Shown one piece after another: positions 1 to 56,648 of a stretch of 64,000 nt of DNA. Both the position numbers and the translations under genes were made by a program. Where the stretch lies: positions 19,098,001 through 19,162,000 of the forward strand of contig CM119371.1 in the NCBI GenBank assembly GCA_051294905.1. The letters are read 5' to 3'. The notes under the pieces are model-generated. The model was not told where the DNA came from. It saw only the letters and a list, made by a program, of their open reading frames with translations, and searched no databases. Source of the stretch: Botryllus schlosseri. Lineage: Eukaryota. Position 1 is the stretch's first letter, and the number at the start of each line of letters is the position of its first letter.

Positions 1-494
1 ACCTGATTTCAAAGAGCAGTCAACATTATTGAATAGGTGATGCAGACCTGAGCGCCTACACTTTTCGAGGGCAAAAGAATATTGCAAAGCACAAAAAATT
101 GTAGATGTGCGCTCAGGCTAAAATCATAACCACTTGAGTAAGTATAGTGTAAGTATGCAAGACATACTCCAGTACTTCGAAAGAGTAGTATTTTGTTAGG
201 GACCACTTCTGGTGACACTTCAGCAGAGGTGCCGAATACAGTCATCGTTCATGCTCTAGTAGAGGTAGCAGTAACGCTGTATATTTCTACTCAAGTACAA
301 GTAGTAGTGGAAGGTAAGTTTTCTAGGTTTCGTTTTGCTTTAAAACTATGAAGTAGAAATGCAATAGTTTATGAATATGCAATAGTTTGTACAAGTATGC
401 CAGACACGGTACTTGGTGGCGCGATCACCAATCTAGTCTCTATCAGATAATTTGTAAAGGTACAGTCCAGGAATGAGGTGCAGCAGAAAGTTGA

Positions 495-622
495 CTCAAC
501 ACTTCGGAAGCTGGTGGGTGTGCTCCTCTGTCGCATGAAAGAGTATTTGCTCTTCGCCATAGGTGGTCAAAGTTGCTGGCGATCATATGGTGCTTTCATT
601 TCAGGAAGAATGGCGCTTACAA
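495..622 (-). pseudogene. PKA catalytic subunit-like relic, last exon (copy 1)
   Basis: Minus-strand acceptor tttctttgccag| followed by L*APF..PEMKAPY..SNF..YGEEQILFHATEEH, matching PKA-C [33 protein letters not shown]; has a stop and frameshifts. Confidence 0.7.
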
Positions 623-732
623 CTGGCAAAGAAATAACTGGCATTAATATATCTCAGGGCGGGAATGTGATTGGTATTTTTGCTCTGTTTTCAGATATTA
701 CATCAGGGATAAATTTCTGATTAAGTGAGGTA

Positions 733-1301
733 CGGAGTTGTTGAGTAAGTCACAAGGCTCCGAATCACAAGTCAATCTGACTTTTATAGTTTTGACTCGA
801 GTCAAGTCGAGTCATTTTCAATTCACCACCGAGTCCAAGTCGCCGAGCAGAGGGTCGAGTCTGAGTCATGGTGTTATGACTAGAGTCCGAGTCCAAGTCA
901 TTGTGTTGACTGCCCAGTTTCCAGTTAAGGTCTCGTTAAACCCACTTTTATAACTCTGTTTTGTGATATCGAATGGTTCGCATTTATATTATACTAATTT
1001 TCCTCGCATTTAGCAGTTTGTGGTCGCATTTTCAAGTACCAGTACCAATATACGAAATCCCAATAAGGTGGTTACTTTACTATTCTTCGGAATTACAATG
1101 AAATGTTGGTCTTTGCCGTCCGATTCTCGAGTCATATGACTTGGTTCGAGTCACGCACAATGACTCGAGTCCAAGTCGAGTCAATACACAGATTGACTCG
1201 AGCCGAGTCGAGTCATTTTCGTATTTTGAGACAATGACTCGAGTCAAGTTAAGTCATCAGAAAATCGTGACTCGACTCGGACTCGAGTCATTACAACCCT
1301 G
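733..1301 (+). mobile_element. GACTCGAGTC-rich non-autonomous hAT-like MITE
   Basis: Ends ...agtcattacaaccctg; homologous to 7371-7823, 8197-8698 and 60915-61366; absent at the paralogous site near 36850. Confidence 0.7.
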
Positions 1302-2329
1302 GGGAAAATCCAGTAACTACCCAGGTGATTTGATTTTGAGTCGACTGTTCGAGTCAGCATTGGGCAAAATCGAGTCAAGACTTGAATAAATCACATTTTT
1401 TAATGACTTGACTCTACTCAAGTCACCACCCGAGACTGACTTAAAAGAAGTCACTACTAGGCCCGGGCAAAATTGAGTACCTGGGTGACATGATTCTGAG
1501 CACTGAGATCACGTCAAATTAATTATCCCAGTAAAAACTTGACTCGAGTTACTGATTTTAAATGACTTGATTTGAGTCACATCTGAGTCTCAGTAAAATC
1601 GAGTACTGTGCGATATTATTACCAGTCAAGTACGAGTATTTAAATTTGATTTAAGTTGGCTATATATTTCAGTTTGCATTGAGTCACATTTTGCAGTGAA
1701 TTGAATCGACTCGAGTCGCTACCCAAAACTGGCTACTAGGGTTGGACAAAATCAAGTGCCCGGGTTTGAGTCCATTCGAGCGCCATTCATCATAATATCA
1801 TACCAGTATTGATTGCATAGAAAGTTCAATTACGTATGTGGATTATATATTCCCAATCGCACGTCATCAAAAATGATCCGTTCATTCTCGTCAATAACCA
1901 TTGCATAGCGCTTTGCGATCATCCTGCTGGTGGATCGAATCGCAGCACAAATCTCCTTTCAATGAATATAAGTACCATGCGTTGGATGCTTCATTACAAT
2001 CAAACAATGGTTTTAGATGTCACAGTTCCACTCACGACGTCATTCTTATAGGACAATCTGGTTTTGTAGTTTTTTTGATGATGTGCCGATTCACGAACCC
2101 CTAAAACTAGTTCAAGGACCCCTTAGGGCTGTAGACGCATCGCTATTAGAGTAAGTTTTGGATTTATGAGATGAAAAAATTCCGATCTTACTGGCTACAC
2201 CATGAAGTTGTTAGGTTGTCTAAAAAACGCTGAATAGGCTATAAATTGGGCTAAGAGTACAGCACCGTTATTGTTGTGGTTAAATTATCGCCATAGCGTA
2301 CACCCGAGCCTCAACAGTATGGTGATTAT

Positions 2330-3207
2330 TACGGCGATTTTTTGTTTACTTGAAGAACGGAAAATTTTTACCTAAAAGATCAGAATTTTGACATTTTTTT
2401 ACCTAAAAAACACTTACCGTAATTTTGACCACATCTTGACCTGACGCATGCAAATTAGGTGTTTTCACACATAATGTTGAAATTGTACTACTATCTCAAT
2501 TCCTGGTTGGAACCGTCTGTCTTTACGAAGTGGTTAGGCCGGAAAAACCGTTTTTGACAAATTTTAACATGAAAAAACTTTATTGTAACGAAATCTAGCC
2601 CTATGAAGAATTCCAGTACTTACGTTACGTATTATAGAAGAAATAATTAAAATTTGTTGTAGCATGTAGCACAACAACAACAACGAAAGATACTTTCCTA
2701 CATTCTCGGGTAGAAAGTGTATGACCTTACTAAGTAGTTTGCCAAGAATGGAGAAAGAACGTTCAACAGCAGCAGTTGTTGGCTGACAACACTGAAGTTG
2801 TGCGTACACTGCTGGTGACACACCGTGTTGCTTCATTCTGACAATGGTGTCTACATCACAATGTTTCATCATGCGCTTCTTGATATAAGAGCCATGCAAT
2901 GTCCGAGCAGTCTTGCTTCAGTTAGGATATTGCGGTACGCTGAACATAACACCATTTCAACCCATTTATTTCATTCGACCGTTTATGATTCACAATGAGT
3001 AGACAATGGGCCGTCTACAACGGTAGGCCTATAAAGTAGGCTGCAAGCTGTAAAATATCAAATGATAAGTTCACCGACAGGGCAAAACCTATGATACCAT
3101 CGAAATGCAGGGGTCAAAATAATTTTGAATTTGTAAACAATTTTGACAATTTTTTGGCGTAACGCTACAATTTTGACTTATTTTGACATGTCAAAAAAAT
3201 CGACCTA
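2330..3207 (-). mobile_element. Internally deleted hAT transposon with transposase C-terminal (dimerisation-like) remnant
   Basis: TIRs tacggcgattttt / aaaaatcgaccta; 8-bp TSD gtgattat/gtgattac; ORF 2564-2899 contains PTTAAVERSFSILGKLL. Confidence 0.8.
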
Positions 3208-3652
3208 GTGATTACGCAGTGCATATGTTGCAAGTGGCATTGAGAGTCCGCATTGCTGTATCATGTGGAAGCAAAGTGAGTGATGCAGCATACGTTTACC
3301 ACGTGCTATAAAAAGCAATGGAGCTACAATAAGGCTGCCGCGTCGGGCAAGTACAACAGTGAAGATATCGCGCCAAAAATTTCAAACCGAAAACGTGCAG
3401 CAGCGGCAGCTAGTACGGCACGGGACGATATGCAAATTACATTTAGCTGCAGTTCCATTACGGTGGCTTTCTGACGAAAATGGTTGCGCCCAAAAATATT
3501 TTTGACCTGTTCGCAATTTGAGACCAGATCCTTTTGAGAGAATAGTGCCCATTTAACACGAGCAAGATTATCTGATCCTTGTTGCATTGGTATTTGCACA
3601 TAGATTTAACCTGATTCTTCCATTACGATTAAGAGTTATCTAGACTCTAGAG

Positions 3653-4122
3653 CAGTGCTTTTCAACCTGTGTGACGGTTCGCACTTGTGCGCATGAAAAA
3701 AATTGCAGTGCGAATGACGAAGGTGGTGCGTACGGTGCGAATGAAAAACCCCGAATGAGTGCGAATGAAAATCGTGAATCATAATTGTTAATTTTTCTGA
3801 CCTGGAATAATTCAAATAAACCAAATAGAAAATTCAAAGGCAATGAAACTTTCGTTGTTGCGATGCAATTGTAAAAGCTAGTTTAACTTACGACCCACCA
3901 TTAATCGTAGCTAATATTTTTGCTCTATAATTATTACGCAACCAAAAGCCTGGTTTGGTATATCTTGTGTAGTGGCAGACATACAGTATATCACGTCACC
4001 CCGGCTGAGTCTAAATAAATTCACTATGACAGTATGGCGTATAAACATTGAGAAACACGAGGCAATACCAGGTTGACAATTAAGTTACCTAAAATTCCTG
4101 TGCTCGGGGTTGAGAAACACTG
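3653..4122. mobile_element. hAT-like MITE
   Basis: cagtgcttttcaacc ... ggttgagaaacactg terminal inverted repeats; no clear TSD. Confidence 0.55.
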
Positions 4123-4521
4123 TAAAATTTAGAACATCATCCGTTTTCAAAATAAACCTCCTTTTCTTTCAGCTAGCTATGCCCCTAGTTGGGGGGGGGG
4201 TGAGGACCTGTTCAGGTGATTTGATACAGAACCAAGCACTAAGCTTCGAATAACTAAACTGACTTTGAGTTGGCTTGAGCACCGCCTATTATGACGGCAA
4301 ACCGTCGTGTATCGACTTGAACTGAAATCCTTTGGCGAGAAGAAATTGATTCAAAATTAACAAAATCGAAGATGACTTGTCTCGAGTCACAAGTCAATCC
4401 AGTGAATAGAGTTGAGCAATGAGAAATGATTTATACGAGTAGGCCTGCTCGAATATACGCTTCTTGCCATGGAGTTAATTGTAAACGAGAATTTCAGTTT
4501 CGATAGTATTTTCCCCTATGG

Positions 4522-5226
4522 CAGTGGTTCCCGACCTTTTTCGTCTCATGGACCCCTTGGCCGATATTTGAGCTACAATCCCCCCCCCCCCCCTATGAAA
4601 AAGTTTCCTGTGACTAAAAAAGGTGCTTTTTAACGCACAACCATTTATTGACTTAGCAATATATGGTCAAACATATTTCGATATATCCGAACTACCATGT
4701 TCGAATGCGGACCGGGACCACACTACACTTTGGTAAAGTACAGCTAAATTTGACATGTTTTCTACTGGTCTGGTAGTCACTGACGAAAAAAATCACCAAG
4801 TCCGCTTGCTATGGCCCTGAGTTGAATAGACGAATTTGGCATGTTTTTCACGTTAGCTCATATGTTGGCTTGAAAAGGTAAAAATTTTCACCAGCGACCT
4901 TGTCCTGAATTCGGCTTGACTTTTTCCTGCTTAGTAGCAATTTGGTCGGGAGGCTGTCACAAGCCCAACGAAATCGTCTCACGAGCCTCACTTTATCAGG
5001 GAGTGTCATATCTACGGAAAGCATTTGAACATATACCTGGCTTAAAATCCGCCAGAGAAACATACAGTTGTAAAGAACTAGTTTCATACTCGACAGTTCT
5101 ACCATAAAAATCTAAAAACCTTGTGAGCCTGTGTATCTTCTGATACAATCCGAAAGCCAGATTCCCCCCTAAAAATTTCTAATTTTCCCCCCAAGGGGGG
5201 AATTCCCCCCCGGTTGGGAACCACTG
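4522..5226. mobile_element. hAT (Charlie-like) MITE
   Basis: TIRs cagtggttcccgacc / ggttgggaaccactg; perfect 8-bp TSD ccctatgg. Confidence 0.85.
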
Positions 5227-5764
5227 CCCTATGGAAACCTTTATCCCTAATTTGGTGGTGTCGCAGCAAACGAGAAAAAGGTAGCCAGTCACACTTGGTC
5301 ACAAATAATTTTGTTATCTCTGGACAGTGACTATTTATTGACCATCGCAAGTGTGGATCGGTACGTGACAGCAGTCTTGTGCTATTCGAAAGTATTGAGA
5401 CAATTTTTCTATGCGACGGATCAACTAATGGTGGCGTGTGAATTCGTTGCTTGAAAAAGTATTATCTCACTACTCGATTCAGCTTTAGTCCGCATCCGTA
5501 GAGATGAGCAATTGATAACTGGTTTAGATTCGCGACTTTCCGAAGTCCCATGATTTACAATTTTTATGCTCGTTTTAAGGAAGGTTTACGGTAAGTCAAC
5601 AACGGACTTGCACTCGGATGACGATCTCAGATGCAGGATAGGATTTGGGTTGGGCAATATTAAATCAGGCCATCTCCGGTGTTCAGTAACAAAGAACAGC
5701 AACTTTCAATTTTACCCGACCCAAACAGACTCAAAGTAAAAAGCTGTCAGATGAGCCCACTTAC

Positions 5765-5910
5765 TTTTCTCAGGTAAACAGCGAATCATTCGATTGCCGA
5801 AAACCAGCGGTGGTCATGTTTCAGTTGCCGTATTTTTTGCTCACTTCGACCTGAAGGAGGTTGCAGGTAGGATATTTTAGCTCGGACATGAAATGACATG
5901 AAACCGGAAT
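5765..5910 (-). pseudogene. PKA-C-like relic, exon homologous to VRFPSHF...AIYQRK (copy 1)
   Basis: Acceptor ttctcttttccgcag|, translation IPVSCHFMSELKYPTCNLLQVEVSKKYGN..HRWFSAIE*FAVYLRK, donor |gtaagt. Confidence 0.85.
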
Positions 5911-6110
5911 CTGCGGAAAAGAGAAAACATTCTGCATCTGCATTTGGATACTGAGAAGCTTTCTATCTTCGTTTAAATTTTTCAAGAACTCGAGTTTATG
6001 CAACATTTGAACACAATTTAAATATTGTCAATGTAAGATAAGAACACGGGATTGAAGTTGAAGTACCTCCAAGAAACTCTTTGAACACATGATTATAATA
6101 CTGACTAGAG

Positions 6111-6405
6111 CAGTGGTTTTCAAACTGGGGGGCATGAAAGCACGGAAGGAGGCCGCGACGCTGCGGTCAACTGATTTTTTTTTAGCGCTCCGCTCGATTG
6201 ACATCGAATTCATTTTTTGCTCTGTCTATAGTCCGAATTTCATATTTGAGAATTCTCTCATCAGCAGTCATAACCGTCCATGCAATCAAACTATCCGCTG
6301 AGATTGCTAGCATTCTGGTTGCATTTTGTGATATGACCATAAAGTGGGCGCATCATTTTTCACTATCATAAATGGGGCGTGTCTAAAAAAGCTTGAGAAC
6401 TACTG
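6111..6405. mobile_element. hAT-like MITE
   Basis: cagtggttttcaaact ... aagcttgagaactactg; internal part similar to about 25920-26185. Confidence 0.55.
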
Positions 6406-6880
6406 AAAAAAAAACGATAAAATCAGTATTGCACTCGAATACAAGAACTTGAATCATTGTCCCAAGACCAGGGGTGGCCAACCTGCTGCCGTACGGCGGC
6501 ATGCAGTCGTAGAATCATAACTGTGCGGCTGTCTGAACGCAATTCAATTAGTGTGTGTTGGCAGCCGTCAACACGCAATTTGAATTTAAATTTACAAATC
6601 TACTCCCAAATTATCGAGAGAACTTCATACTACTTGTAAAATTTTCACACTCGTTGCTCAACCCAATACACCTTGAATTTCCGATTTTAATGTATTGGTG
6701 TCCGTGCAATCTGAGTCCCACAGTGGGTATGCGAGACGGAAAGGAAAATAATGTATCCGATAAAGATCAGGCCCAGGCAGAGCCTACCTGAGTAAAGTCA
6801 AATAACAAAAGATGACAAGCCACAAAGACACCAAAGATAACCAGAATCGACAACATTACAACCTACCAGACACCGGTGAC

Positions 6881-7076
6881 CAATGTTCCTTCTAAGCTGC
6901 GCACGTGCGCAAATGCGCAGTGCTGAAACGGTCTCTGCGCACAGAAAATCTCCGTTGCGCACAAAAAATCCGAAGTGATGACATTTTTTTTTAGTCATTA
7001 CGCACTGTTTGTTCAAGGGTCTGCGCAGTAAGTTGGTGATCGTGCGCAGGCTTGTCAAAAATTCGAGGGAACATTG
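6881..7076. mobile_element. Short hAT-like MITE (caatgttcc TIR family)
   Basis: TIRs caatgttcc/gggaacattg; perfect TSD ccggtgac; second copy at 61524-61718. Confidence 0.85.
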
Positions 7077-7370
7077 CCGGTGACCTTGCCTAAAATGAGC
7101 TTGGGCACCAGATACGCGGGAATGCCACTTGTGCTCGGGAGTGCACGGAAGATGAACGGTACGAGATATGCGGCTCCTACTTCTACTTGAGAACCTAGGC
7201 TGACTACTTCGATTACCTCGGATGGTATGTTCGAGACTAAAGTGGTCAGTAACAAAGAACTTCTACTTTTCTTGAGTACTGAAGTAGGTTCTGCCTACTG
7301 TTGTGACAACTTACAGAGCTCAAGTACACAGCGCCCGTAGTTGTCAAAGTTTTTGGCGAGTGGCACTTAT

Positions 7371-7823
7371 CACGGTTGTAATGACTTGAGTCATGACCTG
7401 ACTCGAGAAGCAATTTTTCGTCGACTTGACTTGACTCGAGTCATTTTCCTAAAATTGTAAAATGACTCGACACATTCTACTTCAACTTATACAAGTCTCG
7501 TATATCAGGACCGATAATTGAGAAATAGGCCCAGAAACTGTCTGATATCTGTTTGAATTAGCATGTTTAAAGTGAAAAAATGAGCATATTATGAATACGA
7601 GGCCTTCGATATCACCTAAGTGTTTTGACAGAAGTGAGTTGAACTTGACTCAAATCGATACTGAACAGTAAACACTATGACCTAGACTCGGACTCGAGTC
7701 TTAACAATATGTCTCCGACTCGACCCTCTGCTCGCTGACTTCGACTCGGAGTTGACTTCAGTCAAAACAATAAAAGTCAAATTGACTAGTGACTCGGAAC
7801 CTTGTGACTTGGTTACAACCCTG
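7371..7823 (-). mobile_element. GACTCGAGTC-rich MITE, inverted copy
   Basis: cacggttgtaatgac ... cttggttacaaccctg; reverse complement of the 8197-8698 family. Confidence 0.75.
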
Positions 7824-8196
7824 GTGCTTACGCCAGGGAGAGGACAGACCGGGGTTGGCATTCTTTGTCACAACTGTGTGAATGACGGATTTCTAACTCT
7901 TAATTTTTATTTTTTATGTTGGTATGAGTTTTTAGAACAAAGAAATTTACGATAAGACAATGATGTCCAAGGGCGGTCCGCAGTAGCGCGAGACAAAATT
8001 GATTACCCGCCTGGGTGAAATTTTGAGTTCGAGTCCGTATTGGAATTAATTAGTTGGTGCAGTCCTAATTTTGAATGGTTGGATTCTACCCTAGTCACTG
8101 ACCGACACCGACTTAAATTGAGTCCCTACAACGGCCAGGAAAACTTGAGTGCTGTGGTGTATCGATTCCAACCATCAAGTTTGAGTCGAGTTGATC

Positions 8197-8698
8197 CAGA
8201 GTTGTAACCAAGTCACAAGGCTCCCAGTCACACGTCAATCTCACTTTTGTAGAGTTTTGACTCGAGTCAAGTCGAGTCATTTTCAATTTACCACAGAGTC
8301 AAGTCCTATTCATTGTGTTGACTGCTCAGTTTCCAGTTAAAGTCTTGTTGAGCCCACTTTTTATAACTCTGTTTGGTGATATCAAATGGTTCGCATTTAT
8401 ATTATACGAATTTTCCGCACTTTTAGCAGTTTCTGGTCGCATTTTCAGGTATCAGTACCAATAGACGAAATCCCAATAGTGTGTTTACATTGCTATTCTT
8501 CGAAATTACAATGGAATGTCGGTCTTGGCCGTCTGAGTCTCGAGTCATATGACTTGGTACGAGTCATGTCCAATGACTCGAGTCCAGGTCGAGTCATTAC
8601 GCAAATTGACTCGAGTCGGGTCATTTCCGTATTTTGAGAAAATGATTCGTGTCTAGCCAAGTCATCAGAAAATCGTGACTGGAGTCATTACAACCCTG
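8197..8698 (+). mobile_element. GACTCGAGTC-rich hAT-like MITE
   Basis: TIRs cagagttgtaa / ttacaaccctg; TSD agttgatc/agatgatc. Confidence 0.8.
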
Positions 8699-10476
8699 AG
8701 ATGATCATTCAGGACATGACTTGACTCGAGTTGCTACTCTAAACTGATTTCAACAGGTCCAGTATCAAGTTTCGAATCGAGTATCATAGCCAATGTCGGA
8801 ATAACTTAAATCACGTTTTTGAATGACTGGACTCAGTTCGACTCGACTCACTTCTCATTATGCTAATTAAACTCGGGTCATTACTATGTACATGAAAAAA
8901 GCAAGAACCTAGATGTCGAGTATTAAGCTTTGATTCCATTCGAGTATCACCTATCGTGATGTAGAATGACGACGTAATAATGAAGTGGAGAATTCAAGTA
9001 CGGTATGTATGTATATATTTTCTTCGGACAAAAGGAATTGATTCCCAGTTACACGTCATCAAAAATAATTTTGTAAACATTGACCACGATTATGGTTCAT
9101 AGCGCTGTGCAATCATAATGTGACACGATTAATACTTAAGGCAAATGTTGTTTCCATGAATGTACAAAGTGTTGTGAGGTTTGCCTTAGATCAGGGGTGG
9201 CTAACTTGAAGCCGTAGTAGAATGATTAAGTAGCCATCTACACATTATTTAAATAGCATATGATAGTGTCTGTCAACATGCAATTTGAAGTTATGAATTG
9301 GCTATAAAATTTTTGAGAGGTTTTACTTCAACTAGATAATTTGTTCCGGAGATTTGATTTTTAGATTTGAATAGTGGTAGTTGAGAAGTTATAGTGTCCT
9401 TGCAATCCGAGCCCTAGAGAAAAAATGAGAGCCGCAGAGGGACATGATGCGTCACATAACAAAATACCAATGACTTTAAATCCTGTGTGTCAAACGAAAA
9501 ACGTTTTTTGTAATATGTGTGGATGATTCAAATATATTTTGATTATAACGACAATCCTGATGTGAGGTGTAGAAGTAACGGCATGCAACAAAGTAATGAA
9601 TGACAATGGGCTCACCTTGAAGATGAATCATCATTAATTCCGTGCCATCAGTCTTCGAAGACACCATCGGCAGATTCAGCTCCATCTGTAAATCTGATCA
9701 CATGGTCTGAACAAGGATGAATATTAGATACCGTAGTAATATGTGCCTGTGCAGCTACCAACAATACTGATATTGGCAAAACCAATCCCAATACCTTTTA
9801 TAGCAATAATGCTCGTGATTTCAATGCGTATGGGAAGCTAATGTAAATAGATTCCGGCGCCTTCGTGAATAGCATTATATATCTATACCGGACTTGGTTC
9901 ACTACAGATATACCTATGTGCGCCTTTTTTGAAATGGCATGCATAATAGGGAGTGTTGAAATGGCCCGTCTTAAAAAGGGAATTGCTTAACCCCCAGAAG
10001 TTGTGCTGGATACCATATGGAGGCGCAAGGCTATATATGAGACATAAGGCGTTCTGTTTTCTACAATTAGTAAGTTTTATGCGCATGCGCAAGGTATTTA
10101 ACAAGCAAACAGTGATGGCACAGAAACGCCAAGGGCTGTCCGCGAGGTAAAGTCTCCCAGTAGCCAATTTAACATGAGCAATTGAGCATATATGGTAATT
10201 GAATAATTACATACGCCACACAAGTAGTCAAAATGCGGCCATAAACAGCAAAAAGGCTGTACGTACACAATTACACATCGGCTTTAGATGCTAAGTTACA
10301 ATCAACCATGATGTCAAGGCTCCCACAGTGGGTAGCGAATATGATGGCAAGGCTATATCATTTGTCGATGAATTGATTGCTAGTAGTCATGACCGCATAA
10401 TTTCGGACTCGAAGAAATATACTCTTTCAACCTCCACCGAATTACTACATGTCAATATCGGAAATCAGCTCTTTAC

Positions 10477-10573
10477 CTTACCATGCAGATAGAATCTTTT
10501 CGTAAATAGGCTGTTCTTCAAAAACGGATGGGTATATGCTGGTCATCTCGTGAAGCAGCATCGCCATGGCATG
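10477..10573 (-). pseudogene. PKA-C-like relic, exon homologous to [32 protein letters not shown] (copy 1)
   Basis: AMAMLLHEMTSIYPSVFEEQP / IYEKILS..GK with frameshifts, ending ggt aag|gtaaag. Confidence 0.75.
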
Positions 10574-10844
10574 CTGAAATCAAGATGTGGGTGATAATAT
10601 CGATATACCGAATTCAAAAACTTGATATGAATCATGTGTTCTGGTGCAAATAGAAATGCACGACATGTCCACGTAACATATATCAATACCGGAACAAATG
10701 TCTAAATTTATTGCAGGGACCGGGATAGACAACATTGCGACAGCCGCCAAAATGGGTGGCTCACTTCTTTTAGATCGGATTCAAATTGCTCTGGCTGTTC
10801 TCACCCCAACATCCAGCCATTGACTAGCCAATTCTATTTCATTA

Positions 10845-10905
10845 CTGATGTCAAGCCCAGATAATGGGAAGGGTTGCGGCAGTAAGGGCATCCAGTGTAA
10901 AATCC
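10845..10905 (+). mobile_element. Possible RTE-clade LINE 5'-region fragment
   Basis: caagcccagataatgggaagggttgcggcagtaagggcatccagtgtaaaa resembles a motif I recall from RTE/Expander 5' regions; not verified. Confidence 0.35.
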
Positions 10906-11084
10906 ACGACAATCAATAATTCCAACTAAACCGTGGACAGTGAACAATTATTAAATTCACCATTTCAATCTTACGTTTCAATTTACAGCAATACTTCTAC
11001 TTGTTCCCGATTATAGTCTACGACTGTTTCGGCCAGCTCTGTAAACGAGTATGTGGAGGCAAAAAACTCTTACTTTTGGCTCAC

Positions 11085-11208
11085 TTGTAAACATCCTTGC
11101 TGTTCGATGAGCAGATTTTCCAGATTAAAATCTCTGCAGTTGATGTCCAGAAAGTGCAGTTCCTCGGAGCATTTGATTTGAGTGGCGTAGAACAGCAAGT
11201 GACACTCG
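11085..11208 (-). pseudogene. PKA-C-like relic, catalytic-loop exon (copy 1)
   Basis: ttcttatcacag|c-ECHLLFYATQIKCSEELHFLDINCRDFNLENLLIEQQGCLQ|gtgag versus PKA s-[42 protein letters not shown]. Confidence 0.88.
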
Positions 11209-11499
11209 CTGTGATAAGAATACAGTACTGATAAGCAACTGATCTTTGAGAAACCTATGATGTACCTAGGTCAGGGTCAACCAACTCGTGGCCTGCAAGA
11301 AGGTTTTAATCGGCCGATGAGGTAATTTTCGAAATTAGTTATAATATCAAAAAGTAAATTACCCAGGTAATTTATTGTGAACTTAGAAGGCCAACCATAA
11401 ATTTGATTACCCTGACCTCGAAATTTGGGATGTTGATGACTAAAATATCAGTTCCGACACATTGTAGTAACCAGTCAGCCAGCCACAATTTTACATCTT

Positions 11500-11603
11500 A
11501 CATCTTCGTGTATGACCATAAAGTAGAATATTTCGTGGCAGATTTATTTGGCTTGAAATTTTTCACTTCGTGTGATTTATTGTCACTCGATTTCTTGATA
11601 CTA
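11500..11603 (-). pseudogene. PKA-C-like relic, exon homologous to QIEHTLNEKRILQAVNFP (copy 1), abutting the ZF exon
   Basis: EIE/TIN..KI/QA/INLP..SY pieces separated by frameshifts; homologous to 41280-41392. Confidence 0.55.
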
Positions 11604-11605
11604 GT

Positions 11606-12197
11606 TGACATCAGCATGCATAGCCATGTGTTCTTAGATGTCTGCCTTTCGTAAGAATTCCTTTCCACAAACCTCGCATTTATGGCGCTTGAAACCGGCA
11701 TGAATAGCCATGTTTGCATTGAGTTCACCTTTTTGCTTGAATACTTTTCCACAAACCTCACATTTGTGGCTTCCGAAACCAGCATGCATAACCTTGTGTG
11801 TATTGAGGTCACTCTTTTGCACGAATTCTTCCCCACAAACATCACATTCATGGCTTTTAACACCAGTGTGAATAGCTATGTGTTGCCTCAATCCAACCTT
11901 TCGCTGGAACCCTTTCCCACAAATTTCACATTCATGGTTTCTGAAACCAGCATGCATAACCTTGTGTTTCTCGAGGTCACTCTTTCGTGCAAATGCTTTT
12001 CCACAAACATCACATTTCTGATTCTTGACATCATTTTGAATATTCATGTGAGTGTTCATGTCACTCTTGCGGCTGAGCTCTCTCCCACAAACACGACAGC
12101 CATGATTCTTGGCACCGACATGCATATCCATGTGTGAGTTGAATACAAATTTGTTGATGGATAGCCTAATGATAATCGAAGGAATGGAGAACTACAT
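11606..12197 (-). pseudogene. C2H2 zinc-finger locus, subtype B, truncated (about 6 fingers)
   Basis: ORF 11634-12131 with CxxC-12-HxxxH units; frameshift and 3' truncation; start ATG seen in paralogues is mutated. Confidence 0.85.
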
Positions 12198-12413
12198 TAA
12201 AAAAGAAAGAATAGAATTATGTAGTCGATATTTTGACCAAAACATTACATAGAATAGACAAGCATTGGTTGACCTACAAAATTGAGAAGTCCACATAGAT
12301 TACACTAAAAGTCGCTGTGCTATTATTTTAATGAGTGCAAGAGTATTCTTAGCTATTGCTACCAACAAACGAATGACGGCAGTCTCATATATGATTGACA
12401 TGTTAGTTATAAG

Positions 12414-13145
12414 TAGGGCGATTTTTTTTCGACCTAAAAAGCGGAAGTTTTTGACCTAAAAAACTGAATTTTGACCTCACGTATGCAAATTAGGTGTTTT
12501 CGTATATAATGTTGAAATTATACTATTTTTCTTCATTTCTGGTTGGAAATATCTGTCTCTATGAAGTAATTTTGCCTGAAAAAACGTTTTTGACTTTGAC
12601 AAGTTTTGCCGTGAAAAAAATTTATTTCAACAAAATTTGGCCCCATGAAGAATTCACGTATTACGACAGTAGTTACATAACGTATTATGGCAAAAATGAC
12701 TAAAATTTGTTGTAGTACAACAAAAGATACTTTCCTACATTCGAGTAGAAAGTGTCTATCATCACCAAGTAGCTTGCCAAGAATGGAGAAAGAACGGTCA
12801 ACAGCAGTAGTTGTTGGCTGGCAACACTGAAGTTGTGCGTGCACTGCTGGTGACACACACCGTGTTGCTTGACAATGTTGTCTACATCACAATTTTTCAT
12901 CTTGGAGTTATTGATCTAACAACCAATGCCCAGAAAGTCTTATTAGGATATTGCCGTCCATTGAGCATGACACCACGTCAACCTATTTGTTTCAATTGAT
13001 GATCTATGATTCACAATGGGCGGACTATAACAGTAGGCCTATGAAGTACGCTACAAGAGAATAAGTTCACCGACAGTGCAAAAGCTGTGATACAAACGAA
13101 ATGCAGGGGTCTAAAACAATTTTGACAATTTTTTTGACCTAACCT
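12414..13145 (-). mobile_element. hAT remnant, same family as 2330-3207
   Basis: Left TIR tagggcgattttttt; ORF contains PTTTAVDRSFSILGKLL; right end deleted. Confidence 0.75.
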
Positions 13146-13837
13146 AACAAAAAATGTCGCACGAATAAGCATGGAACTTGAAATAGTACTAAAAGCACTA
13201 TCCAAGGTCAGTAGACATCAATGAAAAGACCAGAAAGAAGAAATCAGAAATCATTACCGAACAGGAATCATTTCAGCAATCATTTCAAAAGATACTTCAC
13301 TTGGATTCGCGTATAGAAAATGGCAACGTAACTCACATCAATTGATTACTATAAAAAAGAATACAACAAAATCTTTTCATATTTTGAGCATATAAAAATG
13401 AAGGGAATTAAGCGATCCATGGACAATTGGACATGAATGGACTAAAATCAATACACCCGATATATACTTGAGGTGTGCAGAGTGTATATCAAGCCAGATT
13501 CTACATCATACTGCATCACTGAGAACGCAGAAATAATACCATCAGGCAGTGATAACATACGATTCGAAACAAATTATCCAGGGATGCATTGCACGAGTCT
13601 TGACATCATTCTTCTTAATTTCTAATTACAAAATGATGTGGTTGCTAGTGATTGCTACGGCATTCATTGACGATGCTCTAGTTAAAGTAGTATACTCAAT
13701 TTTTAGTCTATTACAAGCAGAGATAACAATTTTATTGATGTGTATCAATTACTTGAAGCAGAACACTTGGCTACTAAAACCATTAAACTAAAGAATTCAG
13801 AATCGATCATCTACCAGAATCTCCAATCTTTTAGGCA

Positions 13838-14116
13838 GCATTCTCAAACTCATATTTGCTCACGGACCAATTTACTAGGCGTTATAAATAATAGTAGTAT
13901 TTAATGCCTTTCCAAGTAGGAAATTCGACCTTATTTGATGGGAAGTTGCAGAGTGATATTCCACACCCATCGTGAAAATGTGAATTACTCTTTAGCAAGT
14001 GACGCCTGGCACGAAAAAATCACACTTTCAGAAATTTGAATAACATTCTTTATGCACCTACTTTCGACGCGGGCACCACAAAATTTTCTCACGATTCGTG
14101 TGTTTGAGACCCCTGT
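13838..14116. mobile_element. hAT-like MITE shared by duplicated upstream blocks
   Basis: cagcattctcaaact ... gtttgagacccctg; equivalent copy at about 19543-19821. Confidence 0.65.
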
Positions 14117-14739
14117 TTTAAGGGTATTTAGGTCCATTTTTGTCAGGATTGCATTATTTCACTGATTGTGATGTCAAATACTTCTGCAGCACCTATATCA
14201 GAATACACTCACACATGGTGGTGGTAGCAACCTATTGATGAAAATACGTCTGAAAGCTGAATAACATTCACAAATGACAAATCTACAAGGGCAAGGACCG
14301 TACCATAGTTATGAAATCAAAGTAAAGTAAAAGTAGCATAGGAATGTTTTCTATACTGAAAGAAACAGGGCCAATAAAAATACTGATATCTAAAACAGTA
14401 GAAATACCATTCGGTATATTCAGACCATGCACAACGGATAAATTGCATTTTCGGGTTAAATCCGGATATTGGGCTCCGCCCGGAAGAGGATGCTTTCTAC
14501 TGAACGGTTCCAAGCATGAACTATTTCTTGTACATTTGTTGAAATTGCATTATTGTGTTGAGTCGATTTTAGTCACTTATGTCATTTTGAGATGATAGCT
14601 GATGGACCAAACAACCATACATGGTGATTGGCGAACATAAATGGTAACTAGGTGTGATATGAAAATAGATTGAGAGCAATGAGCTTTAAACTGACGACAG
14701 AAAAATACAGACCAGTCTTCTTTTCTCGTGATTATTTTC

Positions 14740-15822
14740 AACCAGCACCTCATTCATTGTTCTTGACACAAGCATGGATAGCAAGTTGTGATATGAGTTG
14801 GCCATTTTGTGTCAAATCTATTCCACAAACATTACATTTAAATTTCTAGACATCAGAATTCATGCGAATCTCGAGGTGTTTTTCCCCTCAAACACCGCAA
14901 CTATTGCACTTTGATACCAGCATGCATATTGATGTGAGTTTTCAGGGTACTCCTGTCAGTAAATTTCTTTCCACAAATCTCACATTGATGACGCTTGACG
15001 CCAGTATGTATATCAAGATCATGATTCATGACACCAAAATGAACATTTATATGAATATTGATATCACTCCTCCGAGCCGACCGTTTCCCACAAAATTTCA
15101 CATTTGTGAGTTTTGAGACCAAGATGCACATCCATATGAGATATGAGACACTGCTTCGATGTGAATTTTTTCCGACATATATCACATTTGTGTTTCTTTA
15201 GACCAAGATGAGCATGGATGTGACAATTGAGGGAGTTCTTCCAGCGGAATCCCCTGCCACAAACATCACATTTATAGCTTTCGATGTCCGAATGCGTGAC
15301 CAGGTGTGCCCCGAGGTGACTTTTGAACAAGAATTCTTTCCCGCACACACCACATTTATGGATTTTGAGACCTGAATGTGTGAGCAGGTGTGCTTTGAGG
15401 TGATCCTTCTTTACAAACTCTTTTCCACAAATATCACATTGATGGTTTTTTACACCGGCGTGAATAGCCATGTGTATCTTCAGTGTGCCCTTTCGCACGA
15501 AGTCTTTTCCACACACTTCACACTTATGGCTTTTGATGCCAGCATGAATAGACATGTGCATCTTCAGGGTGCCCTTTCGCACGAAGTCTTTTCCACACAC
15601 TTTACATTTATGGCTTTTGATACCAGTATGAATAGCCGTGTGTGCATTGAGTTGACCCTTGTGCGTGAATTTATAACCACAAACATCACATTTATACCTT
15701 CTAATACCGGTATGACTATCAAAATGATTCTTCATGTCATAATTTGACACAAATCCTTTATCACAAACTTCACATTTATGGCTTTTGGCATGTATGGCCA
15801 TACCTACAGGTATATATTACTC
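14740..15822 (-). pseudogene. C2H2 zinc-finger locus, subtype A, frameshifted (8 in-frame fingers plus degraded ones)
   Basis: ORFs 15064-15801 and 14901-15185; acceptor tttgcttttcag at 15823-15824; paralogue of 21219-22862. Confidence 0.85.
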
Positions 15823-16499
15823 CTGAAAAGCAAATATATGAATGCACTGTAGAGAAAATAGTCACAAGTTCACTCTTATTTAGTGAGATCTACTTCAAGA
15901 CCATAACCTTCCAGATATTGACCAACACTTGGGAATATTTTCCTGTATTTCGCCACAGTGATCGTTTATTTACATCTTCGTGGTCGCCAAATTCAGTGAA
16001 GAAGTTATTTCATTTGCGATTTATATCATCATAGTTTTAACAATCCTGTATCAATGAAGTTGACTAATTTCCAGCTACGAAAATCAGCATCCTAATTTCT
16101 TTTGAATATTTACCAATGCCAATATCTGATCGGTGACTACTACCATACATCTATCTCAAGGGGCACGGATGCAAAAAGCATCAATCTCATTGCAGGAATG
16201 TGTGGAACGTTTTTGGTTGCGGAAAAAGCGATTAAAATTGCCATTTCAAGTACAATTACAGTCGACTCTGCTCAATTGGACCTATCAGTTTCAGGGCGCG
16301 TAGCCAGCGGGCTGGGGTTGAACCTTGGAACTTAAACTCGTGGGTCTAAACTCAAAACCTAGTCTTTTTGAAATGATTATTTTATCCACAATATTCAGCT
16401 GCAATTCAGTAATTCGTATTATCAGTATTACGTGCGGCCAGTTATGGAGAAGCGTTTTGCTAATTAGCGTCAGTCATCAACTGCTGTGCGCAATCTTGG

Positions 16500-16850
16500 C
16501 TGGCATGATTTATATCATCAACAATAGGCCTGGTCGTAATCGTATCTACAGTAGGCCAGCTGCGCAAGATACCATCGCTGGCCTGAATCATCGCATCTAC
16601 AATAGGCCAGCGCACACAATACAATGACTAGCCTGAACAATTACATCTGCATTAGGCCTGGTGTGCAAGATACTGTCACGGGCTTGAGCCATCACATCTA
16701 CAATGGGCCTGTTGCGCACGATATAATCGTTGACCTGAACCATCGCATCTACAAAAAGCCAGTTGCTTTTGATATAATAGTGGGCCTGAACAATTACATC
16801 TGCAATAGCCCTGGTGTGCAAGATATCGTCGCTGGCCAAAACGATCACGT
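16500..16850 (+). repeat. Diverged 51-bp tandem repeat (part of a dispersed family)
   Basis: Unit like aggccagctgcgcaagataccatcgctggcctgaatcatcgcatctacaat, about 6-7 copies. Confidence 0.8.
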
Positions 16851-17184
16851 CTCGGGCCTCGCATGCTTATACTCCTATCTAACCATTGTTTCGAGCTGTG
16901 TTTCTCTTTCTGATTTGATATTGGGTTTGATGATTGCTAAAAACAATTTCATTCTAAAATCTTCATTCTCGTACTGTCAAGTCGGTTTCTGCTATGAGTC
17001 ATAAGCTTTGTGACGGCATTCAAATCACGTTCCAAGAAATATGAGCGAGGACGGGCAGCGCCAACTCCAGCGAGACTATTTCCATTTGATCTAGTTGTGT
17101 AATTAGGGTGCCATTTTCACCATACACATGTTTCATCATTACTAAGAACTGAACTGATTTATTCTACTCATACATTAGGGAGGG

Positions 17185-17630
17185 CAGTGGTTCCCAACTT
17201 TTTTGGCTTCGCGGATCTCTTTTTGACCGTCACGTACCTTCGCGGACCCCCTCAAGTAAGTTCAAATCTAGCTCAATTATCGTGCAACCGACATATGTCG
17301 TGTGCAAATATGAACTGTAGGCTTGTGATAAACAGCAAGAAAATGACTTTTCTTGAAGATAATATCATGCTAATTATGTAGAAATTGGGCAGACTTTTAT
17401 TATTTCAAAGATAATTTTGGAGCTATATTTCTTGATGTACGTGCTCTCGAAAATCTGCGTCTTCGATTTGATGTGAACAAGTGCCGAAAATCCATTTCAA
17501 CAAATATAGATGGAGGCTAATGTAACATTAACGCGTAACGCTCCCGACGACACTTTTGGCGTGATCGCAACATTTATGGCCCCATAATGAAGACACATAT
17601 TTTGAATGAATATATCACAACCAGCCTAGT
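17185..17630. mobile_element. hAT (Charlie-like) fragment next to the truncated end of a ZF pseudogene
   Basis: Starts cagtggttcccaactt...cttcgcggacccc; the ZF array stops just beyond it. Confidence 0.5.
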
Positions 17631-17635
17631 CATTT

Positions 17636-35548: not shown

Positions 35549-36619
35549 TGTCGGATATAAGTCGCGGTAAACACGACTAACCGGTGGCGAAGCCCCCAGA
35601 AGTTTGGTCTATCCCCCTTCGAAGGGCCTGACGAAGTGTTGTTGTGGTCCTGCCATAAAATAATGCGGGAAGTTTAGGCTTCCCGCATGCTGCTATCCGA
35701 TCGTTGGCCCTATTCACATGTCTCGAGTTGGTCTCTGAAACCTACACACACAAAATAACGCACCAGCATTTCATTAACATTGAAAGCGTTTTTATTTGCT
35801 AGTTCGTTAAACCCACGGTCAGGGGCTGCAACACATCAACCACACGGGAACAGAATCAGCGAGATCAAACAGGAAATAAACATTGTTCGACACCACAAAC
35901 TCAAATTTGCTCTGGCCGCAACGTCATCCGCATTGCAGACATTGCGATATCACTTTTGTCCGAAGCATACATTAGTTGCCCAGATATCATTTTCTTCGAA
36001 ATGCTTCCAGCCTTGATGTATATTCGAGCACAACACATTCAACGACACAGATCCTGCAGACTACTAGCCGTCAATATACAATTTATCGCAAAAAATCGCC
36101 GTGCAACAATACCAATGACTGTAAAGCTGATTTCAAACAGCAATCAACATTAATGAATAGGTAATGCAGACGTGAGCGGTTACACTTTTTAACAGCAAAA
36201 GAATATTGCAAAGCACAAAAAATTGTAGATGTGGACGCAGTCTAAAATCATAACCACTTGAGTAAGTATAGTTTAAGTATGCAAAACTTACTCGAGTACT
36301 TCGAAAGAGTAGTATTTTGTTAGCGACCACTTCTGGTGACACTGCAGCAGAGGTGCCGAAAACAGTCATGGTTCGTACTCGAGTAGAGGTAGCAGTAACG
36401 CTGTATATTTCTACTCAAGTACAAGTAGTAGTGGAAAGTTTTCTAGGTTTCGTTTTGCTTTAAAACTATGAAGAAGTAGAAATACAATAGTTTATGAATA
36501 TGCAATAGTTTGTACAAGTATGCCCGACACGGTTCTTGGTGGCGCAATCACCAATCTCGTCTCGATCAGATAATTTGTAAAGGTACAGTCCAGGTCCGAG
36601 GTGCAGTAGAAAGTTGACT

Positions 36620-36744
36620 CAACACTTTGGAAGTTGGTGATGTGCTTCTCTGTCGCATGAAATAGTGTTTGCTCTTCGCCATAGGTGGCCAACGTTGCTG
36701 GCGACCATGCGGTGCTTCCATTTCAGGATGAATGGCGCTTACAC
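36620..36744 (-). pseudogene. PKA-C-like relic, last exon (copy 2)
   Basis: tttctttgccag|V*APFI..EMEAPHG..SN..ATYGEEQTLFHATEKHITNFQS. Confidence 0.72.
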
Positions 36745-39079: not shown

Positions 39080-39245
39080 TTTTCTCAGGAAAATAGCGAA
39101 TCAATCGATTGCCAAAAACCAGCGATGGTTTTTGGATGACGCTACAGTCATGTTTCAGGTTGCTGTATTTTTTGCTCATGTCGACCTGAAGGAGGCTGCA
39201 CAGACGATCTTTCAGCTCAGACATCATTTGAGATGGAAACAGGAC
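39080..39245 (-). pseudogene. PKA-C-like relic, VRFPSHF exon (copy 2)
   Basis: tctttttcgcag|VLFPSQMMSELKDRLCSLLQVDMSKKYSNLKHDCSVIQ/NHRWFLAID*FAIFLRK|gtaagt; 166 nt with a +1 frameshift. Confidence 0.9.
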
Positions 39246-40831: not shown

Positions 40832-40965
40832 TTGTGAATATCCTTGCTGGTCGGTGAGTAGATTTTCAGGCTTTAAATCTCAGCACTCAGCAGTTTATGT
40901 CCACAAAGTGCAGGTCCTCGAAGTCTGACATGATTGTAGTGGCGTTGGTCATCGAGTGACGCTCG
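40832..40965 (-). pseudogene. PKA-C-like relic, catalytic-loop exon (copy 2)
   Basis: ttcttatcacag|c-ERHSMTNATTIMSDFEDLHFVDINC*[7-nt dup]DLKPENLLTDQQGYSQ|gtaat. Confidence 0.9.
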
Positions 40966-41279: not shown

Positions 41280-42597
41280 TTGCATATGACCCTAAAGTAG
41301 AATATTTCGTGGCAGATTTATTTGACTAGAAATTTTACTTACAACTTCACATGATTCAATGTCACTCGATTTCTCGGTTTTTGCATTGGTACTAGGGTTG
41401 GGACTTCGGGATCGAATTTGAAATCCCGGGATCGGGATTTCCGGGATTTTCGCTTCTCAATCCCGGGATTTCCCGGGATTAGCAAAATAGTAAAATACGC
41501 ATAATGCAAGCTACATAAACAACATTTATTCCTTGTAATATTGATTCCCAACTGCGGCTCCAAGGTAGCCTTCTTGCGGCTCTGAGTGACCTCTAAATAT
41601 GCCACAAAATATAATGGACGACAGTTGTTGTTGTTTGTTTCTATATATAGTTATAGGCAATTTTTGTATATGAATGCTGAAATGAGGAATACTAGATATC
41701 TCTAGAGCCGTCCAAGGCCGCTTCTGAAAACAGAGAAACAGAATTCTCGCAGACTAACGTCAAACGCACGGAGGAATACCCGTCAGACAACGACATAATC
41801 TTGAGTTCTGCTGCTCGTAGACCTATCGTATTTTTGAAGAGTAAATTACGACACAATTTCACTAACAATAAAATAACGGCTCATAGTCAAGTATAAATTG
41901 CAATAAGTCCAATATTTTTCATAGAATAATCCTCCGCAAACTTGTGTATCAAGTGCTGGAATGTATGAAGAGGTATCACATAACAACAAAATAGTATGTT
42001 GAGTAATGATATGCATTTTCAATTTATTTCAATGTATAGCACTTGCCTATCTGCGTCTACCAATGCTAGAATAACAGATATACAATCTGTAGAAGTCTAT
42101 GTGCAATTGTGCATGTAAATACTTTTGAGTTTGCTAGATGGTGAGATTTAGAGGTAGGTTTTCAGATACCTTTAGAATCAGTATATAGTCTAATCGGGTG
42201 TTTTAATGAGGCTCCCTGCGTATACTATGAAGTTTGAAATGCGGCTCCGACATTCAAATTGGTTAGGAACCACTAATAAAGAGTATCATCGCTTAGACGG
42301 TTTCGTAATTTGTTGGCGAAATATCCTTAAAATATGGGCGGGGGCGCCAGACATAGGCCATTTTCGAAAAGGGGCGCTGTAGGGACGTAAGGTTAAAAAA
42401 CAATATTTTAGACAACTTGTCTAGTTTTTGACACTGCTTTATTACCACAAAATGACGCATGACGTTAGTAAGCCCTGGTAGATGCTGTTCACAAATCCCG
42501 GGATTTCATTGGGGCTAATCCTGGGATCGGGATTGCTTCAAATCCCGGGATCCCGGGATCGGGATTTCCCGGGGTCCCAACGCTAATTGGTACCCTC
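41280..42597 (-). pseudogene. PKA-C-like relic, alphaC exon (copy 2), interrupted by a MITE
   Basis: Acceptor tttagttcacag at 42598-42599; after removing 41393-42585 reads EIE/TLN..IF*S/INLP. Confidence 0.55.
41393..42585. mobile_element. hAT-like element with atcccgggat subterminal repeats
   Basis: tagggttgggac ... gtcccaacgcta; perfect TSD attggtac. Confidence 0.88.
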
Positions 42598-44255: not shown

Positions 44256-44460
44256 TGGAAAAACACCTCATTAGAAAGCCCCCCTCTTCTGTGTTAGTCC
44301 TTATGGTAAATTGGGATTTTAACATCTTCATGTTAGGGTGGTAACCTGGCCATTGAAGTCATTTAGGACAAGGCCCGCAGCTATAACTCTATCCAGTGGC
44401 ATGCATATCCATATGATTCTTGAGATCAATCATTCATGTAAATTATTCACCCAAAGAATC

Positions 44461-56545: not shown

Positions 56546-56648
56546 CATGATTTGTGTGAAAAGCTTCAGAAATCGCGGTAGAGCAATAAAGGTTGTCATT
56601 GCTCCACATATATTGGAATCGCGTTCACACGTATCAGACGAACTAAAT

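What the first reader, a model, noticed from the sequence alone, without database searches (positions are those of the whole stretch)
495..11603. Hidden intron-containing PKA catalytic subunit relic directly downstream of a ZF gene (copy 1)
Seen: five or six minus-strand segments, most bounded by AG/GT, in the correct order (11603-11500, 11208-11085, possibly 10680-10621 'TWT..FAPE..IK', 10573-10477, 5910-5765, 622-495). They translate to degraded PKA-C motifs (RDxxxENLLIxQQG, HEM..YP..F.EQP.IYEKI.SGK, NLLQV..KKYGN..HRWF, APF..SNF..YGEE). Knowledge: these boundaries match the vertebrate PRKACA exon junctions as I recall them (S|EPH, YIQ|V, SGK|VRF, QRK|VEA). Inference: a DNA-level duplicate of the PKA-C gene, not a retrocopy, was swept into the ZF cluster and decayed. 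The ORF track shows only one fragment of it.
Basis: partly seen in the sequence, partly recalled or inferred. Interest (0 to 1): 0.8.

Follow-up and report, generated by a model that had tools for sequence, protein, structure and literature searches.

The report
Dead PKA gene half, copied twice
Between zinc-finger genes lie two broken, intron-bearing copies of the back half of a protein kinase A gene of sea-squirt type, likely ordinary duplication debris that was already dead when it was re-copied with its neighbours.

Summary
The relic is real, but two of the six listed segments fail and one unlisted piece was found. Exons 6, 8, 9 and 10 of a PKA catalytic-subunit gene lie on the minus strand (11208-11085, 10573-10477, 5910-5765, 622-495), with AG/GT at PKA intron positions. 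11603-11500 is not PKA (chance score; overlaps a high-copy repeat). 10680-10621 is weak. A clear exon-7 3' piece with its GT sits out of order at 7126-7085. A second copy (41392-36127) shares two stop codons. The copies differ equally at all codon positions (16/90, 17/90, 17/89) and in exons and introns (81.5% vs 80.2%), so decay is neutral and began before duplication. Exons 1-5 were not found. Ciona PKA-C fits best of 122 sequences. The ZF abutment is likely a secondary deletion. Two oddities: splice dinucleotides all kept (p about 0.02-0.05, post hoc) and a 3' block 92% alike between copies against 80% upstream. RNA data show no spliced use but have little power; the parent locus could not be searched. 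The scan had no earlier PKA note, but noted similar PLK1 relics 14-15 Mb away in this genome (unchecked). Verdict: ordinary duplicated pseudogene fragment.

The parts
11634..12191 (-). Truncated C2H2 zinc-finger terminal exon (ZF12): AG acceptor at 12193-12192, in-frame stop at 11636-11634; ZF-like sequence breaks off at about 11605
   Evidence: Pfam zf-C2H2 E 6.8e-28; translation; alignment to the paralog at 54.5 kb; X7 contig aligns 11673-12193 with 22 unaligned letters beyond the acceptor, read as a spliced transcript
11595..11605 (-). Junction between ZF exon and relic; resembles the last bases of the 1.2-kb element plus its target-site duplicate seen in copy 2, so likely a deletion breakpoint
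11209..11595 (-).
   Evidence: 81.4% identical to copy 2; chance score for PKA exons; repeat depth; motifs
11085..11208 (-). PKA-C exon 6 relic (S139-Q181), AG...GT, 3-nt deletion, catalytic loop altered (Y164C, K168N, P169L)
10621..10674 (-). Possible, heavily decayed exon-7 remnant (T195-K213), no AG, donor TT; weak
   Evidence: 27 of 1260 shuffled bins reach the score; not above chance in local scan, 143 of 300
10477..10573 (-). PKA-C exon 8 relic (A223-K254; first 9 codons not found), 6-nt deletion, 4-nt insertion, GT donor
7085..7126 (-). Out-of-order 3' piece of PKA-C exon 7 (G200-K213) with GT donor, wedged between two small repeats
   Evidence: 27.2 bits vs 10.4-14.1 null; 19 of 24 non-degenerate sites match; flanks; no PDB hit at E<=10 for the 22-aa frame
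5765..5910 (-). PKA-C exon 9 relic (V255-K309), AG...GTAAGT, 19 nt deleted, stop at W302
495..622 (-). PKA-C exon 10 relic (V310-end), AG acceptor, stop at E311, frameshifts
3..494 (-). Sequence downstream of the exon-10 relic (likely 3' UTR, with a dispersed repeat at about 110-319); part of the block 92% alike between copies; runs off the window edge
41393..42585 (.). 1.2-kb element with an 8-bp target-site duplication upstream of copy 2
40832..40965 (-). Copy 2, exon 6 relic: 7-nt duplication, R165 stop, AG...GT
39080..39245 (-). Copy 2, exon 9 relic: 1-nt insertion, stop at W302, AG...GTAAGT
   Evidence: PDB E 3.4e-5
36618..36744 (-). Copy 2, exon 10 relic: stop at E311, AG acceptor; similarity to copy 1 continues to 36127

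Best explanation
This is a dead, intron-bearing fragment of a tunicate-type PKA catalytic-subunit gene (exon 6 onward), present twice in a zinc-finger cluster, that likely arose by DNA-level duplication and was likely re-copied with the cluster after it had begun to decay. Shown: exon remnants at PKA intron positions, no N-lobe exons in the window, stops and frameshifts, shared lesions, neutral divergence. Inferred: (1) a genomic piece of the animal's own PKA-C gene entered, or was stranded in, the ZF cluster; (2) it decayed (20 of 155 non-degenerate sites changed alike in both copies); (3) tandem or segmental duplication made two copies, now 30-36 kb apart and about 20% diverged; (4) small transposons filled the introns, exons 7-8 were lost from copy 2, and an internal duplication or move left an exon-7 piece behind exon 8 in copy 1; (5) a deletion cut off the 3' part of ZF12 and brought it against the relic; (6) gene conversion or unequal crossing-over later made the 3' blocks more alike (8% divergence). 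It makes no kinase and most likely does nothing.
For: PKA identity: (tblastn 30.4-44.3 bits with P0139 vs at most 25.0 in 20 controls). Intron positions: read-through gene calls from other animals start PKA likeness at 138-139 in 109 of 150 and end it at 181-183 in 102 of 150; breakpoints after 213 in 4, after 254-256 in 5 and after 310 in 1 of 265; PMC3625193 (passages and Introduction read) states that exon number, lengths and phases are identical in chordates including tunicates. Death: shared stops at W302 and E311; differences by codon position 16/90, 17/90, 17/89; four-fold sites 10/48 vs non-degenerate 20/125, p 0.50; exons 220/270 vs flanking introns 689/859, p 0.72. Missing 5' half: no score above null for exons 2-5. 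Own-lineage parent: Ciona savignyi PKA-C ranks first of 122, 344.6 vs 310.1 bits for the next. Raw RNA reads: depth 0 over exons 6 and 8 in X23 and at most 0.57 over the other exon bins.
Against: All 12 splice-site bases at the six secure boundaries are intact; expected by chance with p about 0.02 (0.05 if the doubtful exon-7 donor is counted as lost), a post hoc test. The 3' block is 619/674 alike between copies vs 1232/1532 upstream (p 2e-12), which conversion explains but constraint could too. Contigs of runs X7 and X8 cover all non-repeat relic bins at depth 2-17. The parent locus was not seen. Pfam finds no kinase family in any of the four relic exon frames given, and two word-indexed protein searches found nothing.
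Confidence: 0.86

Rival explanations
1. The relic is dead as a kinase but is used as spliced, non-coding 3' exons: ZF12, having lost its own 3' end, reads on into the relic, splices from a cryptic donor (after 11502) through exons 6, 8, 9 and 10 and ends in the PKA-derived 3' region.
For: Same strand, directly downstream; ZF12 appears transcribed and spliced at its acceptor (X7 record 3); splice dinucleotides all kept, p about 0.02-0.05; candidate donor in copy 1; 3' block more alike between copies; an X8 contig covers 49-409.
Against: None of the 15 joints shown (of 430) links relic exon ends; X7 record 2 (10055-10506) runs unspliced across the exon-8 donor; two AATAAA lie within 60 bases of the junction; the candidate donor is absent from copy 2 and lies in a repeat; exons are no better kept than introns; the X8 contig differs from copy 1 at 31 sites, so it is not from this copy.
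Confidence: 0.08
2. The relic marks the ancestral PKA-C locus, which died after a copy arose elsewhere and was then overrun and truncated by the expanding ZF cluster, rather than being an imported duplicate. Compatible with the rest of the best explanation; it changes only step 1.
For: Nothing in the window shows an insertion boundary of the PKA piece; deletions of exons are common here (copy 2 lacks exons 7-8).
Against: Purely indirect: earlier unchecked notes describe PLK1 relics carried along in ZF clusters of the same genome while working PLK1 genes persist. Synteny could not be tested.
Confidence: 0.12
3. The PKA piece was carried in by a DNA transposon (Helitron or Pack-type capture) rather than by segmental duplication. 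Also changes only step 1.
For: The region is rich in small elements with 8-bp target duplications and hAT fragments; an exon-7 piece is out of order.
Against: No terminal repeats or target duplication enclosing the relic appeared in the self-comparison; the elements found sit inside introns and differ between copies; the right-hand end lies outside the window.
Confidence: 0.1
4. It is a processed retrocopy later split by transposon insertions.
For: The spacers are largely filled with repeats.
Against: The breaks fall at PKA exon boundaries with polypyrimidine-AG acceptors and GT donors at six boundaries, and exon lengths fit after allowing for indels; non-repeat intron sequence next to the exons is shared between copies.
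Confidence: 0.01

Closest known systems
Duplicated (unprocessed) pseudogenes, as defined in GENCODE (PMC3491395; passages read)
   Same: Exon-intron structure of a parent gene kept, coding sequence disabled, neutral decay.
   Different: Only the 3' half is present, so no parental promoter; exon order partly scrambled; parent not located here.
PKA Calpha/Cbeta family, tunicate single-copy PKA-C (PMC3625193; passages, Introduction and supplement hits read; Ciona savignyi UniRef100_H2YHW3)
   Same: Sequence of exons 6-10 and intron positions; Ciona-type sequence fits best of 122.
   Different: No exons 1-5 or DFG motif found, catalytic loop altered, stops and frameshifts. The non-functional or extra PKA-C copies in the passages read are intronless retroposons (PRKACG, marsupial Calpha-II); this one keeps introns.
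PLK1 pseudogene relics among ZF genes in the same genome (earlier AI notes e1-9959977, e1-9952113, e1-7786634; not checked here)
   Same: Dead, intron-bearing, exon-scrambled kinase pieces copied along with C2H2 ZF genes; one note also reports splice signals better kept than chance.
   Different: Different kinase, 14-15 Mb away, tens of copies there against two seen in this window.
Chimeric ZF genes made by exon duplication, such as human ZNF492/ZNF98 (PMC5898914; passages read)
   Same: Duplicated exons inserted into a ZF locus in a tandem cluster.
   Different: There a ZF exon is used in a protein; here the donor is a kinase, the exons are disabled and use in a transcript is not shown.

Membership tests
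Duplicated (unprocessed) pseudogene | Sequence homology to a protein-coding parent family | tested here: met
Duplicated (unprocessed) pseudogene | Exon-intron structure of the parent retained | tested here: met
   AG/GT at boundaries 139, 181, 254, 255, 309, 310; 139 and 181 strongly supported by read-through gene calls, 213, 254 and 309 by only 4, 5 and 1 proteins; exact human exon numbering is recalled, the paper's figure was not visible
Duplicated (unprocessed) pseudogene | Disabling lesions and neutral evolution | tested here: met
Duplicated (unprocessed) pseudogene | An intact parent gene elsewhere in the same genome (separates duplicated from unitary) | not testable with these tools
   no genome held; PMC3625193 passage reports a single homolog in the invertebrates examined, tunicates included
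Processed pseudogene (retrocopy) | No introns, exons joined | tested here: not met
PKA Calpha/Cbeta clade (origin of the sequence) | Best matches are PKA-C, not another kinase | tested here: met
   56 of 56 PDB sequences listed are PKA-Calpha; the 40 longest of 150 library hits, which I printed, are PKA-C; reference named cAMP-dependent protein kinase
Functional PKA catalytic subunit | Complete open reading frame with Gly loop, K72, catalytic loop and DFG | tested here: not met
   exons 2-5 and the 5' half of exon 7 not found; stops and frameshifts
Transcribed pseudogene or chimeric ZF-pseudogene transcript | Locus-specific spliced transcripts | tested here: inconclusive
   near-zero raw-read depth, no relic joint among 15 of 430 shown, one unspliced contig; but only 3-6% of each raw run was read and ZF exons themselves had depth mostly below 4

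The most novel reading that the evidence does not exclude
After a deletion removed the 3' end of zinc-finger gene ZF12, the dead PKA exons were taken over as its spliced, non-coding 3' tail. Their splice sites are kept by selection and the PKA-derived 3' block is homogenised between copies, so kinase relics in this animal's ZF clusters (PKA here, PLK1 elsewhere) would serve as ready-made 3' exons that set ZF transcript stability, for instance through nonsense-mediated decay.
Probability: 0.08. Interest if true: 0.55.

Novelty: new member of a known kind. Interest (0 to 1): 0.2.

Why it matters
As it stands it matters little: it is a neutral marker of how a tunicate ZF cluster grew (a bystander gene piece copied along, deletions, a later exchange of the 3' block) and a warning for annotation, since six-frame ORF tracks and Pfam miss such relics. 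I found no report of intron-bearing PKA-C pseudogenes in tunicates in two searches, which is weak evidence of absence. It would matter more if the kept splice sites reflect use in ZF transcripts, because that would give a function to kinase debris that recurs in this genome's ZF clusters.

Tried and rejected
Whole-genome search for the parent: no genome held. Word-indexed protein searches with the exon-6 relic: nothing (17 candidates, none at E<=10); the HMMER library search worked. Pfam on 66 frames (60 of the 136 stop-free non-ZF frames of 68 aa or more, plus 6 chosen pieces): no kinase family; only a sub-threshold hAT dimerisation match at 2567-2917 and ZF families in ZF12; the remaining weak hits (E 0.01-0.04) are treated as chance. 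The other 76 frames were not scanned. PDB search with the exon-7 piece: no hit. Segment 11603-11500 as exon 5, or any other exon tested: rejected. An exon-7-like reading inside the repeat of the 3' block (ends at 191 and 36315; 13.4 and 10.1 bits vs null up to 15.1): treated as chance. An exon-8 copy behind 7085 (21.4 bits at 6492-6470, 0 of 100 local shuffles but within the window-wide null of 21-23 bits, and on a repeat end): rejected. Sequencing-run search: no RNA holder listed; shares under 0.2 were not used as evidence. Earlier-finding look-ups near the locus, by sequence and by PKA words: no PKA note. Paper searches on pseudogenes in ZF clusters: 0 papers, nothing relevant in the listing, one paper. 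PMC5526564: passages read, nothing on exon 6-10 positions. Structure prediction and complex prediction were not run: there is no intact protein.
Full report
Setting. The window is 40% G+C with no N. All 63 C2H2 motifs found lie on the minus strand, in six groups near 12, 15, 18, 22, 45 and 54 kb. No whole genome is held. Four DNA runs of one sample hold 86-90% of the words of 5000-12300; they may be the source of the assembly and are not independent support.

Is it PKA? The frame 11207-11085 matches PKA-Calpha 140-181 in the PDB at E 3.6e-5, and all 56 listed sequences are PKA. 10573-10477 matches 223-252 only at E 0.064, again with 56 of 56 PKA. A profile of the exon-6 pieces of both copies found 488 proteins at E<=0.001 among 1.84 billion; the 40 longest of the 150 listed, which I printed, are PKA-C. 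With these tool-supplied sequences, tblastn gave collinear minus-strand hits for residues 139-183, 223-252 and 260-310 in 11210-5762 (30.4-44.3 bits for the main pieces with P0139, against at most 25.0 in 20 reversed or shuffled windows), and a second set at 40967-39077. A frameshift-tolerant codon-profile scan of both strands gave 68.8 and 64.0 bits for exon 6, 41.1 for exon 8, 59.0 and 86.8 for exon 9, and 36.9 and 31.8 for exon 10, against 18-27 bits in reversed windows; exons 2-5 gave nothing above that range (repeated with a forward score and 10 shuffled windows, where the best exon-4 and exon-5 scores, 13.6 and 16.0, were marginal, lay far from the relics and had no neighbouring exons). 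Exon numbers follow the human gene as I recall it. Against: Pfam found no kinase family in the four relic exon frames given, and word-indexed searches failed.

Which PKA? Of 122 PKA-C sequences complete over residues 140-309, P0009 fits the six relic pieces best, 344.6 bits against 310.1 for the next and a median of 289.2. P0009 is Ciona savignyi. The parent is therefore of tunicate type, which agrees with earlier notes calling this a sea-squirt genome. No other tunicate was knowingly in the set.

Are the introns ancestral? Many library hits are gene calls that read through exon ends in genomic DNA of other animals. PKA likeness begins at 138-139 in 109 of 150 and ends at 181-183 in 102 of 150, exactly the limits of the 11208-11085 segment. 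Support for the later boundaries from such proteins is thin: 4, 5 and 1 of 265 break after 213, 254-256 and 310. PMC3625193 (passages and Introduction read; the figure with positions was not visible) states that exon number, length and phase are identical across chordates including tunicates. In the window the matches end and begin at AG and GT in both copies. A retrocopy is excluded.

Segments that fail or were missed. 11603-11500 scores at chance for exon 5, lacks the splice dinucleotides as delimited, and overlaps a repeat laid by 25-27 contigs at depth 605-14,570. It is intron remnant, 81% identical to copy 2. 10674-10621 needs several indels and is reached by 27 of 1260 shuffled bins for residues 195-213 but by 606 of 1260 for the whole exon; I leave it as possible. 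A better exon-7 piece, G200-K213 followed by GT, lies at 7126-7085: 27.2 bits against 10.4-14.1, 19 of 24 non-degenerate sites matching, though no PDB hit. It is downstream of exon 8, between an element with an 8-bp target duplication (7076-6881) and another repeat starting near 7123. The simplest reading, inferred, is an internal duplication of the exon 7-8 block followed by uneven loss.

Dead, and dead before duplication. Both copies carry stops at W302 and E311; copy 2 also at R165; each has frameshifts. Against the Ciona sequence, of 155 non-degenerate sites in exons 6 and 9, 109 are kept in both, 20 changed alike, 9 in copy 1 only, 14 in copy 2 only and 3 differently; some of the 20 may be true differences of the parent. 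Between copies the three codon positions differ equally (16/90, 17/90, 17/89), and exons are as diverged as flanking introns (220/270 vs 689/859 identical, p 0.72).

The ZF neighbour. ZF12 has an in-frame stop at 11636-11634 and breaks off near 11605. In copy 2 the same intron remnant starts just behind a 1.2-kb element with an 8-bp target duplication, about 3 kb behind an intact ZF frame; the copy-1 junction resembles the last bases of that element plus the duplicate. So the abutment is likely a later deletion. ZF12 is about as close to the paralogs at 18 and 54 kb (81-82%) as these are to any other, and further from the one next to copy 2 (73%), so the duplicated unit cannot be drawn simply.

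RNA (window 1-20000; two raw-read runs, two contig sets; 90% likeness). Depth is dominated by small repeats. X23 has depth 0 over 9339-11339, 0.1-0.15 over the exon-9 bin and 0.19-0.57 over 1-667; X21 has at most 0.44 in these bins. But only about 6% and 3% of the runs were read, and the repeat-poor ZF bins had depth of 0-3.6, so power is low. None of the 15 joints shown, of 430, links relic exons. X7 record 2 crosses the exon-8 donor unspliced. X7 record 3 is clipped at the ZF12 acceptor, which I read as splicing of ZF12. X7 and X8 cover introns of the relic at depth 2-10, which may be nascent RNA or DNA. X8 record 9 (49-409; 31 differences, 2 gaps, 363 letters) shares the copy-2 base at 117 but does not match copy 2 either (23 differences, 360 letters): a third copy or a divergent allele.

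Unexplained. First, all 12 splice-site bases at six secure boundaries survive, p 0.019-0.023 from the decay rate of coding sites, 0.05-0.06 if the doubtful exon-7 donor counts as lost. Second, the block 681-3 is 619/674 identical between copies against 1232/1532 upstream (p 2e-12); it starts abruptly 59 bases before exon 10 and includes intron and repeat sequence, which fits conversion or unequal crossing-over better than selection. An assembly mis-join was not tested.

Verdict. A duplicated-pseudogene fragment by the GENCODE description (PMC3491395, passages read), with the parent-gene criterion untested. The scan had no earlier PKA note but several unchecked notes on analogous PLK1 relics among ZF genes 14-15 Mb away. 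Interest is low; the exapted-3'-exon reading stays open at about 8%.

Noticed in passing
window 41392-36127 (-): Second copy of the relic with exons 6, 9 and 10; exons 7 and 8 not found in the 1.6 kb between exons 6 and 9.
   Followed up: yes
window 681-3 vs 36803-36127: Block 92% alike between the copies against 80% upstream, with an abrupt edge; likely conversion tract; runs off the window.
   Followed up: partly
window 49-409 (X8 record 9): A contig that matches neither copy exactly, hinting at a third copy or divergent allele.
   Followed up: partly
window 22919-21219, 45744-44461, 54622-52985 (-): Three long open C2H2 frames (566, 427, 545 aa stop to stop); the groups near 12, 15 and 18 kb are broken or truncated. 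Four genes share an upstream non-coding block (13.2, 18.9, 46.1, 59.2 kb; 78-85% alike).
   Followed up: partly
window 55600-56700 and 58060-58520: 15-bp-period minisatellite arrays in inverted orientation to each other; they produce several spurious long ORFs.
   Followed up: no
window 2433-3128 and 12468-13125: Two related hAT-type fragments (weak Pfam dimerisation-domain match, E 0.004, below the curated cut-off), one inside relic intron 9 and one in the ZF12 intron.
   Followed up: partly
window 22930-23477 vs 28222-27688; 15881-16402 vs 28221-28715: Sequence upstream of the ZF genes at 22 and 15 kb recurs near 28 kb, one part inverted, suggesting a local inversion or duplicated 5' region.
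   Followed up: no
window 6117-6132 and 39443-39460: Similarity between the copies stops at the same point upstream of exon 9, where each copy has a repeat end of a different sequence; possibly an insertion hot spot.
   Followed up: no
window 43796-44258: Recent local tandem duplication of about 234 bases (94% alike) downstream of the ZF gene at 45 kb.
   Followed up: no
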